A stretch of DNA of 64,000 nt from Enterobacteria phage P922: sequence record OR999189.1. One strand, given 5' to 3'. The position numbers and the translations under genes are program-made. Under the pieces are notes generated by a model. The model was not told the origin of the DNA, made no database searches, and saw only the letters and a program-made list of their open reading frames with translations. Position 1 is the stretch's first letter. Each line of letters begins with the position of its first letter. Positions 35,905 through 38,710 of the stretch are shown here, piece by piece.

Positions 35905-36192
35905 ATGATTCTTTATGCGAAAGTATCATCCATTGAAAATGGATATAAATATGATCAAGAAGCAGCTAAAGCCTTGATTGATGATTATGGCATTTTAACA
36001 TGTTTTGAAGTTGAAAAGGTTTACATTGACCGTTCATCTTCTCAAGTTAAATTAGTGAAGGAAGACCGTAAATTTAATACAGTAAATTTTGATTTCTTTA
36101 TTGAAACGGAAAAAGGTCCTCTTGAATATGATATTTTCAAGAATCCTTTGGGTCTTGAATGCATCGTAAATATGTATTATCATAAATGGTAA
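35905..36192 (+). CDS. hypothetical protein
   Basis: 95-aa ORF starting 3 nt after the upstream stop. Confidence 0.5.
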   Translation: MILYAKVSSIENGYKYDQEAAKALIDDYGILTCFEVEKVYIDRSSSQVKLVKEDRKFNTVNFDFFIETEKGPLEYDIFKNPLGLECIVNMYYHKW

Positions 36193-36289
36193 ATATGCTT
36201 TAAGAATTATTTGTTATTATTAACTTATATCGCACTGATTAATACCCTCTATCATCAAGGGTTCTTGTTTGAGAGCCTTTGTTAATAAT

Positions 36290-36362
36290 TGGGAATTAGC
36301 CAAGTTGGTAAGGCACTGGATTTTGATTCCAGGATGCAAAGGTTCGAGTCCTTTATTCCCAG
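36290..36362 (+). tRNA. tRNA-Gln (anticodon UUG)
   Basis: Hand-folded cloverleaf: acceptor TGGGAAT/ATTCCCA, anticodon loop ttTTGat, T-loop GGTTCGAGTCC. Confidence 0.8.
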
Positions 36363-36363
36363 C

Positions 36364-36450
36364 GCGAGAATGGTCAAATTGGTAAAGGCACAGCACTTAA
36401 AATGCTGCGGAATGATTTCCTTGTGGGTTCGAGTCCCACTTCTCGCACCA
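36364..36450 (+). tRNA. tRNA-Leu (anticodon UAA)
   Basis: Acceptor GCGAGAA/TTCTCGC, anticodon loop ctTAAaa, long variable arm, encoded CCA. Confidence 0.8.
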
Positions 36451-36455
36451 AATTT

Positions 36456-36529
<74 letters not shown>

Positions 36530-36539
36530 ATTTAATTTA

Positions 36540-36612
36540 CTCCGTGTAGCTAGTTTGGTAGAGCGCCTGATTTGGGATCAGGAGGTCCAAGGTTCAAATC
36601 CTTGTATGGAGA
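36540..36612 (+). tRNA. tRNA-Pro (anticodon UGG)
   Basis: Anticodon stem CCTGA/TCAGG with loop ttTGGga; T-arm CAAGGTTCAAATCCTTG; acceptor stem has two G-U pairs. Confidence 0.7.
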
Positions 36613-36614
36613 CT

Positions 36615-36704
36615 GGAGGCGTGGCAGAGTGGTTTAATGCACCGGTCTTGAAAACCGGCAGTCGCTCCGGCGACTCATAGGTTCAAATCCTATCGCCTCC
36701 GCCA
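36615..36704 (+). tRNA. tRNA-Ser (anticodon UGA)
   Basis: Acceptor GGAGGCG/CGCCTCC, anticodon loop ctTGAaa, long variable arm, encoded CCA. Confidence 0.8.
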
Positions 36705-36709
36705 GTTTT

Positions 36710-36785
36710 GCTGATTTAGCTCAGTAGGTAGAGCAACTCACTTGTAATGAGAAGGTCGGCGGTTCGATTCCGTTAATCAGCACCA
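36710..36785 (+). tRNA. tRNA-Thr (anticodon UGU)
   Basis: Acceptor GCTGATT/AATCAGC, D-arm GCTCAGTAGGTAGAGC, anticodon loop ctTGTaa, encoded CCA. Confidence 0.8.
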
Positions 36786-36786
36786 A

Positions 36787-36861
36787 GGCCCTGTAGCTGG
36801 AAGGTTCAAGCAAGCGACTCATAATCGCCAGATGGTGGTTCAATTCCACCCAGGGCCACCA
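36787..36861 (+). tRNA. tRNA-Ile/Met (anticodon CAU; probably the lysidine-modified Ile type)
   Basis: Acceptor GGCCCTG/CAGGGCC, anticodon loop ctCATaa, T-loop GGTTCAATTCC, encoded CCA. Confidence 0.7.
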
Positions 36862-36870
36862 AATTAATTT

Positions 36871-36957
36871 GGGGAGTTATCCCGTAGAGGTAGCGGTGTG
36901 GACTGTAAATCCATTGTCATTGCGACTCGGGTGGTTCGACTCCATCACTCCCCACCA
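36871..36957 (+). tRNA. tRNA-Tyr (anticodon GUA)
   Basis: Acceptor GGGGAGT/ACTCCCC, anticodon stem-loop GTGGA-ctGTAaa-TCCAT, long variable arm, encoded CCA; D-arm fold uncertain. Confidence 0.6.
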
Positions 36958-36961
36958 ATTT

Positions 36962-37036
36962 GGATGTGTAGCTCAATGGCAGAGCGATCGCCTGTTAAGC
37001 GATTGGTTATAGGTTCGAATCCTATCACGTCCGCCA
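36962..37036 (+). tRNA. tRNA-Asn (anticodon GUU)
   Basis: Acceptor GGATGTG/CACGTCC, D-arm GCTCAATGGCAGAGC, anticodon loop ctGTTaa, encoded CCA. Confidence 0.75.
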
Positions 37037-37040
37037 AATC

Positions 37041-37116
37041 CGAGGCATAGCTCAGAAGGAAGAGCAAGGACCTTCTAAGTCCTAGGTCGTAGGTTCGATC
37101 CCTACTGCCTCGACCA
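37041..37116 (+). tRNA. tRNA-Arg (anticodon UCU)
   Basis: Acceptor CGAGGCA/TGCCTCG, D-arm GCTCAGAAGGAAGAGC, anticodon loop ctTCTaa, T-loop GGTTCGATCC, encoded CCA. Confidence 0.75.
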
Positions 37117-37132
37117 ATTAAGTGAGGAAAAT

Positions 37133-37483
37133 ATGAAAGGTAATGTTTATTTAGTAGTTCATGATTTAACATTCTATTTTAATCACAATGACACTGTTAT
37201 TTCTGAACGTGTAATTAATTTACTTTATCAGCATGCAGATTATGTTTATGTCGAAAATGAATACGGTCATTGGCAATTTCTCAAAAATCGTTCATTTGGT
37301 TTAGATGGTTACGAATATTTTGAACGTAAAGATCTTTTAGATAAAATTCCGTTATCTACACAATATCAAAATCACAAGTCTTTATATAAATGCCGCCCAA
37401 TTCGAAATGCTGAATCTGCATATGAAGCGATTGATTTATGGCGTAAACGCCGTGAACAAATTGATGCTTTAAAAGAATATTAA
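37133..37483 (+). CDS. hypothetical protein
   Basis: 116-aa ORF with GAGGAAAA RBS starting 17 nt after tRNA-Arg. Confidence 0.55.
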   Translation: MKGNVYLVVHDLTFYFNHNDTVISERVINLLYQHADYVYVENEYGHWQFLKNRSFGLDGYEYFERKDLLDKIPLSTQYQNHKSLYKCRPIRNAESAYEAIDLWRKRREQIDALKEY

Positions 37484-37689
37484 GAAACCGGGTCGCTACC
37501 GGTAAGTCGTCGGACTGATGTTCCCTGGAGTATAGTTTCTCCCACAGTTTTACTGTGTTCTGATTCTTTACTATCACAGCAGAAACGGCGCACCGAATTA
37601 TCGATTCGAGGAAATATCTTTGCCGTAAGCCGAGTAGCGTTTTTGACGGAACGTTCGGATATGATCGAGATATGGCCTTTTAAAAATAT

Positions 37690-37817
37690 TGAGTAGCGTC
37701 AACTACTTAATAACCGGGTTCGAATCCCGGCGTTTCGTACAAACACTTGCCTTAGCAGGTGGAACCCCGACAAGGTTGCCGCAAGGCTTAGCCCCGACCG
37801 AAAGGTTGGGGCTTTTT
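37690..37817 (+). ncRNA. candidate small stable RNA(s) downstream of the tRNA array (T4 rnaC/rnaD-like)
   Basis: About 400 nt without a credible ORF; tRNA-like T-arm CCGGGTTCGAATCCCGG and terminal hairpin GCCCCGACCGAAAGGTTGGGGC followed by TTTTT. Confidence 0.3.
37791..37817 (+). terminator. rho-independent terminator
   Basis: GC stem CCCCGACC...GGTTGGGG followed by a T5 run. Confidence 0.6.
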
Positions 37818-37907
37818 AGTTTGAATCACATAGAGAATGCTGTTACGGATAATAACAAAGTAATAAATAATTAATAACCAACCGATAAATTATTTCAAGG
37901 ATTTTAA

Positions 37908-38471
37908 ATGAAAACCTATGCCGAATTTTTAACCGAAGCAGCAAAATTACCATCTGAAGCAGATCTTACTAAAGTATTCTTCCAATTAGACCCAAAAGAC
38001 CGTGGCGATTTTCTTAAGTGGAAAGCTAAAGCTATTGAAATGTATAACATCGATAATAGTTCTTTTACGATGAGTCAAGAAAATAAATTCAATAAAGCAT
38101 TTTTCAAAATTTCTAAGAAATTGGCATCAGGCGCTCAGGTTCCTAAATCTGCCTTAGCTACTCCTGAACGTGCACCTGTTAAAATTTCTAAGAATATGTT
38201 TGACACTAAAAAATATGTTAATGCTTTGAATAAAGCTCTTGACGCATTGGATGATGCAAAGAAGGCAGCCCGTGATCTTCAAGACGTGTACACCGATTTT
38301 GATCGTAAAACTAAAGGTTCTATTTCAAATAGCGAACGCAATAGTGTAAGTGTTTATTCTGATAGCCTTGATGTTCTTGGCGATGCGTATACTGAAATTA
38401 AAAATCGTATTAACACTGCATCTAAGCTAAAAGCTGCCGCAGAAGCTATAATAACTAAACTAGATAAATAA
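37908..38471 (+). CDS. internal-protein-like protein with capsid targeting leader
   Basis: 187 aa; leader MKTYAEFLTEA; followed by a terminator hairpin. Confidence 0.6.
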   Translation: MKTYAEFLTEAAKLPSEADLTKVFFQLDPKDRGDFLKWKAKAIEMYNIDNSSFTMSQENKFNKAFFKISKKLASGAQVPKSALATPERAPVKISKNMFDTKKYVNALNKALDALDDAKKAARDLQDVYTDFDRKTKGSISNSERNSVSVYSDSLDVLGDAYTEIKNRINTASKLKAAAEAIITKLDK

Positions 38472-38479
38472 TTTTAAAT

Positions 38480-38504
38480 CCCTATCTAAATGATAGGGCT
38501 TTTT
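38480..38504 (+). terminator. rho-independent terminator
   Basis: Hairpin CCCTATC-taaat-GATAGGG followed by CTTTTT. Confidence 0.65.
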
Positions 38505-38637
38505 GGTATCTAGGCCTTTCTGGACCTCTCTAGGCATCATTTAGTTTCTACCCTTTATAATATATTATCCTATCCTTTAATTGCCCCTCCCTGCCCTAGA
38601 ATTCTCTAAAACTTTTTAAAAATTTTTTCACAAAACT

Positions 38638-38667
38638 GTTTACACCCTTGTCATTCCATGGTACTAT
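38638..38667 (+). promoter_or_regulatory. early promoter
   Basis: GTTTAC at 38638 and TGGTACTATACAACTATCAA at the -10 region. Confidence 0.5.
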
Positions 38668-38710
38668 ACAACTATCAACTACTGATACAGAAAACAACTT
38701 GGAGAATGAA

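What the first reader, a model, noticed from the sequence alone, without database searches (positions are those of the whole stretch)
37484..37907. About 400 nt non-coding structured region downstream of the tRNA array
A gene-dense phage leaves about 420 bp without a credible ORF. It contains several hairpins (ACCGG-gtcgcta-CCGGT; CTGTG...CACAG), a tRNA-like T-arm (CCGGGTTCGAATCCCGG) and ends in a terminator. This is where T4 encodes small stable RNAs of unknown function, so it likely encodes one or two sRNAs or tRNA-like remnants.
Basis: partly seen in the sequence, partly recalled or inferred. Interest (0 to 1): 0.45.

Follow-up and report, generated by a model that had tools for sequence, protein, structure and literature searches.

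The report
T4 small stable RNAs rnaD/rnaC
This gap holds this phage's copies of two small stable RNAs known in phage T4 since the 1970s (species 2/rnaD and species 1/rnaC) plus the terminator of the tRNA operon; it is an ordinary, known locus, but the function of these RNAs is still unknown.

Summary
Window 37480-37594 is the orthologue of T4 rnaD (species 2 RNA). Window 37601-37739 is the orthologue of T4 rnaC (species 1 RNA). A conserved trailer (37740-37789) and an intrinsic terminator (37790-37817) follow, and 37818-37907 is just the leader of the next gene. The stretch 37483-37820 is 90% identical to T4.

No Rfam family matches either RNA, but covariation across T4-like genera supports both folds. 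rnaC is tRNA-shaped: a 7-bp acceptor stem, a canonical T arm and two non-tRNA arms. The loops of those two arms are complementary 6-mers (UUGACG/CGUCAA) with two independent compensatory changes, so they probably kiss. rnaD has a 5' hairpin and a conserved P2-P3 core with an invariant UCCCUG.

The two RNAs occur independently in tRNA arrays of many T4-like genera, and rnaD also occurs in rV5-like phages. A published convergent adaptive SNP in phage BW-1 maps to window 37555 and restores the CACAG/CUGUG pairing.

Function remains unknown. The locus is already known and interest is modest.

The parts
37480..37594 (+). rnaD orthologue (T4 species 2 RNA), about 115 nt. The ends are placed by homology to the T4 annotation, and the 5' end overlaps the TAA stop codon (37481-37483) of the upstream 116-aa ORF.
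   Evidence: Alignment to T4 NC_000866 rnaD, 71053-71171 complement. An nhmmer profile hits 37482-37594 at E = 1.6e-25. The 5' ~45 nt and 3' ~25 nt are conserved; the central ~50 nt cannot be aligned with T4.
   Evidence: Sequence and fold. A hairpin with a different sequence sits at this position in 17 of 19 relatives; one of the two apparent exceptions was a mis-cut of my own script.
37506..37527 (+). rnaD core, 5' side: P2 strand (G37506, C37508-G37512), internal loop, P3 strand (37519-37522) and the invariant junction UCCCUG (37522-37527).
   Evidence: RNAalifold recovers P2 and P3. Pair counts: P2 100% and P3 96% paired in 19 sequences, with 5 of 10 pairs showing compensatory changes; slid controls give 30-49% paired.
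37528..37577 (+). rnaD P4: hypervariable tip arm plus the 3' junction AUCAC.
   Evidence: At least six unrelated P4 sequences, all hairpins, sit on the same conserved core in relatives. The convergent adaptive SNP 164264 T>C in phage BW-1 maps to window 37555. It changes CUAUG to CUGUG, which is the window's state, and so restores the stem (PMC12685909).
37578..37594 (+). rnaD core, 3' side: P3 strand AGCA (37578-81), GAAA, P2 strand CGGCGC (37586-91) and the tail ACC.
37601..37739 (+). rnaC orthologue (T4 species 1 RNA), 139 nt, tRNA-shaped. It has an acceptor-like stem (37602-08 with 37731-37), a long arm 1 (37609-37679), an A-rich linker, arm 2 (37687-37712) and a T arm (37714-37730).
   Evidence: Alignment to T4 rnaC, 70908-71046 complement, with 2 differences in 139 nt. 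nhmmer E = 1.2e-42. In 20 sequences from about 10 genera, 93.0% of cells are paired against 37-45% in slid controls, and 30 of 53 pairs have compensatory changes.
37643..37648 (+). rnaC arm 1 apical loop UUGACG, one partner of the proposed loop-loop (kissing) helix.
   Evidence: Complementary to 37697-37702. The helix is 100% paired in 20 sequences and has two independent compensatory events: Tegunavirus UUGAUG/CAUCAA and Klebsiella phage EI UUGGCG/CGCCAA.
37697..37702 (+). rnaC arm 2 loop CGUCAA, the other partner of the kissing helix.
37740..37789 (+). Conserved 3' trailer: hairpin CACUUGC-CUUA-GCAGGUG (37744-61), an invariant single-stranded GGAACCCCGACAAGG (37761-75) and a small variable hairpin.
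   Evidence: Nearly invariant after rnaC in Tequatrovirus and Gaprivervirus relatives. It directly follows rnaD in the Dhakavirus loci (L246, L247) and several IMG/VR contigs, which lack rnaC. Fold z = -4.56. In the first hairpin, variation is confined to the loop.
37790..37817 (+). Intrinsic terminator of the tRNA/rnaD/rnaC transcription unit.
   Evidence: 10-bp stem, GAAA loop, T run. It is conserved in T4. PMC2330249, citing Broida & Abelson, states that transcription of the T4 tRNA cluster terminates after the species I gene.
37818..37907 (+). A+T-rich leader of the downstream 187-aa ORF (Shine-Dalgarno AAGGA at 37897-37901, ATG at 37908). It is not part of the RNA genes.
   Evidence: It cannot be aligned with T4. 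In many relatives a 157-aa ORF cassette with a duplicated terminator is inserted here.

Best explanation
The interval carries two RNA genes, rnaD (species 2 RNA) and rnaC (species 1 RNA), followed by the trailer and terminator of the phage tRNA operon.

Shown by homology and comparative analysis:
- Both RNAs are orthologous to the annotated T4 stable RNAs.
- Both folds are maintained by compensatory substitutions across T4-like genera.

Inferred biogenesis:
- They are transcribed as the 3' end of the long tRNA-array transcript. A late-promoter consensus TATAAATA lies at 35944, and the transcript here also carries the 116-aa ORF.
- Transcription stops at the terminator 37790-37817.
- The RNAs are then cut out by the host tRNA-processing machinery. 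rnaC presents an acceptor stem stacked on a canonical T arm, which is the RNase P substrate shape, so RNase P would make its 5' end.
- In other phages both RNAs sit in slots directly between tRNAs, so flanking tRNA cleavages release them. 3' exonucleases would then trim back to the terminal helices.

Inferred function:
- rnaC cannot decode. It has no D arm or anticodon arm, and its two replacement arms appear locked by a 6-bp loop-loop helix.
- I think both act as stable trans-acting RNAs that bind proteins: rnaC as a tRNA mimic, and rnaD through its invariant core with a rapidly changing tip.
- I expect their effect to be accessory and host-dependent rather than essential.

Rough probabilities: identity and biogenesis about 0.9; trans-acting protein-binding or decoy role about 0.35-0.4; purely cis role in operon processing or stability about 0.2; base-pairing regulator about 0.1; other about 0.3.
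For: Identity:
- 90.4% identity to T4 over 37483-37820, with T4's annotated rnaD and rnaC falling on 37480-37594 and 37601-37739.
- 819 phage records carry the region.
- Some records annotate rnaC under the match.

Expression in T4: a Northern blot detected RNAC and RNA-seq classed RNAC and RNAD as late RNAs (PMC9697503). PMC2330249 describes a single ~1.75-kb precursor that terminates after species I.

Structure:
- rnaC: 93% of cells paired against ~40% in slid controls, and 30 of 53 pairs compensatory.
- rnaD core: 92.6% paired against 30-49%, and 8 of 15 pairs compensatory.
- Kissing helix: 100% paired in 20 sequences with two independent double changes.

Modular, tRNA-slot position:
- rnaC lies between tRNA-Trp and tRNA-Gly in Karamvirus, and immediately next to tRNAs in Tegunavirus, Gelderlandvirus and Winklervirus.
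- rnaD lies between tRNA-Arg and tRNA-Ile in Providencia phage PSTCR6 and after tRNA-Met in the Vequintavirinae phage W70.
- The Dhakavirus loci L246/L247 and several IMG/VR contigs have rnaD without rnaC.

tRNA-likeness: ARAGORN calls a 96-nt 'tRNA-Phe' inside the rnaC copy of L009, and the SonariX record annotates its rnaC copy as a tRNA.

Host-dependent effect: the only mutation shared by three BW-1 lines adapted to ECOR34 restores the rnaD tip hairpin (PMC12685909).

No E. coli chromosomal homologue was found.
Against: - No expression data exist for this particular phage.
- The ends are placed by homology only. Here rnaD follows an ORF rather than tRNA-Arg, so its 5' end must be made differently from T4's.
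- No function is known. Reviews and recent papers still call it unknown (PMC3014915, PMC12685909).
- From memory, T4 deletions removing the tRNA region are viable on laboratory strains.
- The T-loop sequence is not conserved in Winklervirus-type copies (UGCAUCC), so strict tRNA mimicry is not universal.
- The acceptor stem carries two U-U mismatches in most copies.
- The BW-1 result is one study without a reconstructed mutant.
- rnaD alone does not fold better than shuffled sequence (z = -1.12).
Confidence: 0.85

Rival explanations
1. Cis-acting operon furniture. The structures exist only to terminate, stabilise and order the processing of the tRNA precursor, acting as 3' exonuclease barriers and spacers. 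The stable RNAs would be by-products with no trans function.
For: In T4 and in this window they sit at the 3' end of the tRNA transcript, just before the terminator. rnaD's ends lie in helices. From memory, the region is dispensable in T4 on laboratory strains.
Against: In other genera both elements sit in the middle of tRNA arrays, far from any terminator, and they move independently of each other. Loop and junction residues that make no secondary-structure pairs are invariant: UCCCUG, and the two kissing 6-mers. A by-product would not need a conserved tertiary contact. The BW-1 adaptive SNP lies in the rnaD tip, not at a processing site.
Confidence: 0.2
2. Decayed tRNA pseudogenes or neutral spacer ('tRNA-like remnants') with no function.
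For: rnaC keeps a perfect T arm and an acceptor-like stem but has lost the D and anticodon arms. No tRNA model scores it.
Against: Strong purifying and compensatory evolution is seen over about 10 genera. The T4 and window rnaC copies are 98.6% identical while flanking genes come and go. In T4 RNAC accumulates as a discrete RNA on a Northern blot, and both RNAs are detected by RNA-seq (PMC9697503).
Confidence: 0.03
3. A small protein gene: the 61-aa TTG ORF at 37689-37874, which matches PHROG family phrog_28391.
For: phrog_28391 matches at E = 1.8e-32. Many GenBank records annotate 'hypothetical protein' over this DNA.
Against: The ORF has a TTG start and no evident Shine-Dalgarno sequence (my reading). 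It begins inside rnaC arm 2 and reads through the T arm, the trailer and the terminator hairpin. T4's curated annotation has rnaC here and no CDS. In other genera the same DNA runs straight into a tRNA gene. Substitutions follow RNA pairing. The PHROG family is most simply explained by repeated automatic ORF calls on conserved RNA-coding DNA.
Confidence: 0.03
4. Counter-defence RNAs, a more specific form of the trans-acting reading. rnaC would be a tRNA decoy for host tRNA-targeting nucleases or tRNA-binding sensors. rnaD's variable tip would be matched to variable host factors.
For: - The rnaD P4 arm is hypervariable on an invariant core.
- The convergent BW-1 mutation on the semi-permissive host ECOR34 restores P4 pairing (PMC12685909).
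- The genes are accessory and modular and are shared between Straboviridae and Vequintavirinae.
- Phage tRNAs are known to rescue infection from tRNA-cleaving defence systems such as PARIS (bioRxiv 10.1101/2024.01.02.573894, seen; abstract only).
Against: There is no direct evidence and no identified host target. rnaC has no anticodon-like loop to be cleaved. P4 variation could equally come from recombination and homing-endonuclease traffic in this region (PMC2330249).
Confidence: 0.2

Closest known systems
Bacteriophage T4 rnaC (species 1 RNA, T4s001)
   Same: Orthologous: 137 of 139 nt identical, in the same position after rnaD and before the same trailer and terminator, with the same fold.
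   Different: Nothing material. Expression in this phage has not been tested.
Bacteriophage T4 rnaD (species 2 RNA, T4s002)
   Same: Same position. The 5' hairpin, the P2-P3 core, the invariant UCCCUG and the 3' end are the same.
   Different: The central P4 arm (~50 nt) is replaced by an unrelated hairpin, the T2/BW-1/DalCa type. Here the gene follows a 116-aa ORF instead of abutting tRNA-Arg.
tRNA (Rfam RF00005)
   Same: rnaC has a 7-bp acceptor-like stem stacked on a 5-bp T stem with the canonical UUCGAAU loop. It lies in tRNA slots of tRNA arrays, and ARAGORN and some annotators occasionally call it a tRNA.
   Different: There is no D arm and no 7-nt anticodon loop. The arm in the anticodon-arm position has 10 bp and a 6-nt loop that pairs with another loop. 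It is 139 nt long and its 3' tail is UACAAA, not CCA. Neither Rfam nor ARAGORN hits it in the window.
Bacterial Y-RNA-like YrlA (RF02553) and other tRNA-like domains such as the tmRNA tRNA-like domain
   Same: All are non-decoding RNAs that borrow the acceptor/T-arm shape and therefore engage tRNA-processing enzymes.
   Different: There is no sequence or covariance-model match to this region. The only YrlA hit in the scan lies on real tRNAs at 36902-37016 and is far below threshold. There is no Ro-binding stem and no tag reading frame, and ARAGORN finds no tmRNA.
Loop-loop kissing complexes (for example TAR/TAR*-type 6-bp kissing loops; from memory)
   Same: Two hairpin loops carry perfectly complementary 6-mers that covary.
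   Different: Here the contact is intramolecular, or possibly a dimer, within a tRNA-shaped RNA. It has not been tested experimentally.

Membership tests
T4 rnaC / species 1 RNA | Full-length sequence homology to the T4 gene (70908-71046 complement). | tested here: met
   colinear, with 2 differences in 139 nt. nhmmer E = 1.2e-42.
T4 rnaC / species 1 RNA | Conserved fold: acceptor-like stem, two arms and a T arm. | tested here: met
   93% of cells paired, 30 of 53 pairs with compensatory change, slid controls 37-45%.
T4 rnaC / species 1 RNA | Accumulates as a stable ~140-nt RNA in infected cells. | not testable with these tools
   Shown for T4 only (Northern blot in PMC9697503).
T4 rnaD / species 2 RNA | Sequence homology to the T4 gene (71053-71171 complement). 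| tested here: met
   the 5' ~45 nt and 3' ~25 nt are near-identical. The central P4 arm cannot be aligned. nhmmer E = 1.6e-25.
T4 rnaD / species 2 RNA | Conserved core: P1, P2, P3 and the UCCCUG junction. | tested here: met
   92.6% paired and 8 of 15 pairs compensatory.
T4 rnaD / species 2 RNA | Accumulates as a stable ~120-nt RNA in infected cells. | not testable with these tools
   T4 only: RNA-seq classed RNAD as a late RNA (PMC9697503); the probe described there was for RNAC.
tRNA (RF00005) | Cloverleaf with a D arm and a 5-bp anticodon stem carrying a 7-nt loop, scoring above the model threshold. | tested here: not met
   No RF00005 hit in 37484-37907 even at E <= 10. ARAGORN finds none there. 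The fold lacks both arms.
tRNA (RF00005) | Acceptor stem stacked on a T arm with a canonical T loop. | tested here: met
   37602-08 with 37731-37, and 37714-30 (CCGGG-UUCGAAU-CCCGG). The acceptor stem has two U-U mismatches that become U-A and C-G in Tegunavirus.
tmRNA | tRNA-like domain plus a tag reading frame. | tested here: not met
   ARAGORN finds no tmRNA. The only Rfam tmRNA hit (permuted, 14 bits) lies on tRNAs at 36834-36908.
Intrinsic (rho-independent) terminator | G+C-rich hairpin followed by a U run, at the end of a transcription unit. | tested here: met
   37790-37813 plus TTTTT. The position is conserved in T4.
Hfq-type 3'-end-derived sRNA (considered for the trailer 37740-37817) | A discrete RNA ending at the terminator, with a conserved single-stranded seed and Hfq binding. 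| not testable with these tools
   Only the architecture fits: an invariant GGAACCCCGACAAGG upstream of the terminator. No expression or binding data exist.

The most novel reading that the evidence does not exclude
rnaD is a horizontally mobile phage RNA module found in both Straboviridae and Vequintavirinae. Its invariant core (P2-P3 and UCCCUG) would bind a conserved partner, while its hypervariable tip hairpin would set host-specific infection success, for example by neutralising a variable host defence or host factor. rnaC would be a tRNA-shaped RNA locked by an intramolecular kissing loop that acts as a tRNA decoy. The BW-1 adaptive SNP, which restores the tip hairpin, would be the first genetic handle on a 50-year-old 'function unknown' locus.
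Probability: 0.2. Interest if true: 0.7.

Novelty: already known. Interest (0 to 1): 0.3.

Why it matters
As a finding it rediscovers the rnaD/rnaC locus of T4-type phages, so it adds no new kind of element. It matters only in a secondary way. These RNAs have had no assigned function since the 1970s, have no Rfam family and are unannotated or mis-annotated as proteins or tRNAs in many of the phage records examined here.

The comparative models built here give concrete, testable handles on that old question:
- the tRNA-shaped rnaC fold with a covarying kissing loop;
- the rnaD core with a hypervariable tip;
- the independent occurrence of the two RNAs in tRNA slots;
- the link to the BW-1 adaptive SNP.

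Tried and rejected
- Rfam at E <= 10 over 36000-38700 gave only chance-level hits in the interval: isrK on the minus strand (16 bits), anti-hemB (14 bits) and Rev39 (11 bits). No family exists.
- ARAGORN finds no tRNA or tmRNA in the interval.
- The first two degenerate pattern scans of IMG/VR were too loose. Tighter patterns and nhmmer filtering were needed.
- The whole-interval fold pairs rnaD GAAACG with the rnaC 3' strand CGUUUC. I rejected this as a conserved feature, because other genera have CGUUCC there and rnaD is not adjacent. It could still be a precursor conformer in Tequatrovirus.
- My first P2 register (bulged C, U-A and G-C outer pairs) was rejected in favour of RNAalifold's register (bulged U, G26-C119). 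Only that register survives in the Providencia, Karamvirus and Raoultella copies, with a G-C to A-U change.
- I considered a K-turn reading of the P2/P3 internal loop and dropped it, because the loop sequence is not conserved.
- Pairing between the rnaD UCCCUG and the rnaC CGAGGA gives 5 of 6 pairs with a mismatch, which is not convincing.
- A distant blastn search for a host mimic or origin in 5,426 E. coli genomes found no match.
- Pfam finds nothing for the 116-aa and 61-aa ORFs.
- Literature searches for a described function found none. The Miller 2003 T4 genome review is not held.

Full report
**What is at the coordinates.**
The window is a T4-type (Tequatrovirus) phage.
- ARAGORN finds ten tRNA genes at 36290-37116.
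- A 116-aa ORF follows at 37133-37483, and a 187-aa ORF starts at 37908.
- Between them (37484-37907) there is no credible ORF.
- A textbook intrinsic terminator lies at 37790-37817.
- G+C is 0.42-0.48 here, like the tRNA array, against 0.30-0.34 in neighbouring genes.
- The interval folds better than shuffles: z = -3.98 overall, -2.75 for the rnaC part and -4.56 for the trailer. The rnaD part alone is not significant at z = -1.12.

**Identity.**
- The annotated T4 genome has, after tRNA-Arg, misc_RNA rnaD ('species 2 RNA', 71053-71171 complement) and rnaC ('species 1 RNA', 70908-71046 complement).
- Alignment puts these on window 37480-37594 and 37601-37739. The following ~75 nt, up to and including the terminator, are also conserved. 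Identity is 90.4% over 37483-37820.
- rnaC differs from T4 at 2 of 139 positions.
- In rnaD the first ~45 nt and last ~25 nt match, but the central ~50 nt are a different sequence.
- The region occurs in 819 phage records.
- Rfam has no family for either RNA: nothing above chance appears at E <= 10.
- The literature agrees that these are stable RNAs of unknown function made from the T4 tRNA region (PMC3014915). RNAC was detected by Northern blot, and both were classed as late RNAs by RNA-seq (PMC9697503).
- They are part of a ~1.75-kb precursor that terminates after species I (PMC2330249, citing Broida & Abelson). That paper also maps T2L/RB1/RB3 tRNA regions that carry extra tRNAs and ORFs but lack segB, which is the arrangement seen here.

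**rnaC structure.**
- Homologues from Winklervirus, Karamvirus, Tegunavirus, Gelderlandvirus, Marfavirus (Klebsiella phage EI), Citrobacter phage Ursula, Enterobacter phage SonariX and IMG/VR contigs were collected and aligned (A3, A6, A7).
- RNAalifold gives a tRNA-shaped fold:
  - a 7-bp acceptor-like stem;
  - a long arm in the D-arm position;
  - a 9-nt A-rich linker;
  - a 10-bp arm with a 6-nt loop;
  - a canonical T arm.
- On 20 distinct sequences, 93.0% of cells pair (slid controls 37-45%), and 30 of 53 pairs show compensatory change.
- The two U-U mismatches in the acceptor stem become U-A and C-G in Tegunavirus.
- The apical loop of the long arm (UUGACG, 37643-48) is complementary to the loop of the second arm (CGUCAA, 37697-702).
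- This 6-bp loop-loop helix is intact in all 20 sequences. It has two independent double changes: UUGAUG/CAUCAA in Tegunavirus and UUGGCG/CGCCAA in phage EI.
- I found no description of this contact in the searchable literature. It is a prediction, not a demonstrated structure.
- rnaC cannot decode, because it has no anticodon loop or D arm. It does present the acceptor/T-arm shape that RNase P recognises. From memory, the classical literature reports RNase P-dependent maturation of species 1.

**rnaD structure.**
- Nineteen diverse copies (A5) share four elements:
  - a 5' hairpin P1, whose sequence varies while the hairpin is kept;
  - a long-range helix P2 (GuCGUCG with CGGCGC);
  - a 4-bp helix P3 (UGUU with AGCA);
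  - an invariant junction UCCCUG.
- Over these helices, 92.6% of cells pair against 30-49% in slid controls, and 8 of 15 pairs are compensatory.
- The arm P4 is a hairpin in every copy but has at least six unrelated sequences and lengths. The window has the T2/BW-1/DalCa type, whose apex is the CACAG/CUGUG hairpin.

**Distribution.**
- The two RNAs are independent modules that occupy tRNA slots.
- rnaC lies between tRNA-Trp and tRNA-Gly in Karamvirus, directly upstream of tRNA-Trp in Tegunavirus, and between tRNA-Met and tRNA-Gly in an IMG/VR contig.
- rnaD lies between tRNA-Arg and tRNA-Ile in Providencia phage PSTCR6, and after tRNA-Asn in Karamvirus, far from rnaC.
- The Dhakavirus loci L246/L247 and several IMG/VR contigs have rnaD followed directly by the trailer, with no rnaC.
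- rnaD also occurs in Vequintavirinae: W70 and A73 after tRNA-Met, and Cronobacter phage CR9 before tRNA-Asn.
- No E. coli chromosome carries anything similar.

**A functional hint.**
- PMC12685909 reports that three independent lines of phage BW-1 evolved on the semi-permissive host ECOR34 shared a single SNP, 164264 T>C, in rnaD.
- BW-1 is 97% identical to the window here. I mapped the SNP to window 37555.
- On the RNA strand the change is A>G. It turns BW-1's CUAUG into CUGUG, repairing a C-A mismatch in the CACAG/CUGUG apex. The window and other relatives already carry G.
- This suggests that the P4 apex matters for growth on some hosts. It is one study without a reconstructed mutant.

**Mechanism, and how sure.**
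- Identity and biogenesis have confidence of about 0.9. The steps are co-transcription with the tRNA array, termination at 37790-37817, and excision by tRNA-processing nucleases with trimming to terminal helices.
- For function, I favour stable trans-acting, protein-binding RNAs with accessory, host-dependent effects (about 0.35-0.4). Within this, rnaC would be a tRNA mimic and rnaD a conserved core with a variable tip. A counter-defence role is a more specific version (about 0.2).
- The main rival is a purely cis role in precursor processing or stability (about 0.2). Mid-array positions, independent mobility and invariant unpaired residues argue against it.
- Pseudogene or neutral spacer, and protein-coding readings, are each at or below 0.03.
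- The 61-aa TTG ORF matches phrog_28391. It starts inside rnaC, reads through the terminator, has no evident Shine-Dalgarno sequence, and is best explained as repeated automatic mis-annotation.

**Rest of the interval.**
- The trailer 37740-37789 is almost invariant across Tequatrovirus, Dhakavirus and Gaprivervirus loci and further IMG/VR contigs. It has a hairpin at 37744-61, then a single-stranded GGAACCCCGACAAGG, then a small variable hairpin.
- Together with the terminator it has the architecture of a 3'-end-derived sRNA of about 75 nt, which would hide among tRNAs on gels. This is speculation and untested.
- 37818-37907 is the leader of the next ORF. In many relatives a 157-aa ORF with a duplicated terminator is inserted at this point.

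**Verdict.**
The element is already known as T4 rnaD/rnaC and is of modest interest. The added value lies in the covariation-backed structural models, the modular distribution and the link to the BW-1 SNP.

Noticed in passing
window 37689-37874 (+): A 61-aa TTG ORF over the rnaC 3' half, the trailer and the terminator matches PHROG family phrog_28391 (E = 1.8e-32). Many GenBank records annotate 'hypothetical protein' here. This looks like a protein family created by automatic ORF calls on conserved RNA-coding DNA.
   Followed up: partly
window 37133-37483 (+): A 116-aa ORF (phrog_3355, unknown function, no Pfam hit) sits between tRNA-Arg and rnaD, where T4 has nothing. Its stop codon overlaps the homology-predicted 5' end of rnaD, so the rnaD 5' end cannot be made by tRNA-Arg 3' processing as in T4.
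   Followed up: partly
window 37787-37826; L002 (phage DalCa) 1889-1928 and 2446-2485: Many close relatives (DalCa, HP3, BW-1, YUEEL01 and others) carry a ~560-bp insertion after the terminator. It holds a 157-aa ORF flanked by a duplicated copy of the terminator. The window lacks it.
   Followed up: partly
window 37740-37789: The trailer between rnaC and the terminator is almost invariant across several genera, including a single-stranded GGAACCCCGACAAGG. In Dhakavirus it directly follows rnaD. It could be a separate 3'-end-derived small RNA or a processing signal.
   Followed up: partly
L004:717-855 (Karamvirus AS6); also L230:577-736, L234:5781-5908, L259, L260, L263, L268, L269, L287, L331: A third conserved, structured-looking element of ~145 nt (GGCAGUCCAGAGAGAUGAGUAUUGGGAGG...CAUCAAGCUACUUGUUUGUACUCUCUGGACCCGG) sits in tRNA arrays of Karamvirus-type and other phages, between tRNAs. 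It has no Rfam match and is partly annotated as a hypothetical protein. It is absent from the window.
   Followed up: partly
L009:7816-7911; L357:573-667 (Enterobacter phage SonariX): tRNA finders and annotators call part of rnaC a 95-96-nt tRNA: ARAGORN gives 'tRNA-Phe' and the SonariX record gives 'tRNA-Met'. rnaC copies may therefore inflate tRNA counts in some phage genomes.
   Followed up: no
window 36787-36861; L248:1418-1492 (Vequintavirinae phage W70): The tRNA with anticodon CAU, called Met by ARAGORN, sits at the position of T4's annotated tRNA-Ile. It is nearly identical to the tRNA that precedes the rnaD-like element in the rV5-like phage W70. This suggests exchange of tRNA-array segments between the two phage groups.
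   Followed up: no
window 37580-37586 and 37731-37736: In the whole-interval fold, rnaD GAAACG pairs with the rnaC acceptor 3' strand CGUUUC, making 6 Watson-Crick pairs. This competes with the mismatched rnaC acceptor stem. It is seen only where rnaD and rnaC are adjacent, because other genera have CGUUCC. It could be a precursor conformer or a coincidence.
   Followed up: partly
window 35944-35951 (+): A T4 late-promoter consensus TATAAATA lies ~340 nt upstream of the tRNA array, inside the trna.2-like ORF. A transcript from it could read through the tRNAs, rnaD and rnaC late in infection.
   Followed up: no
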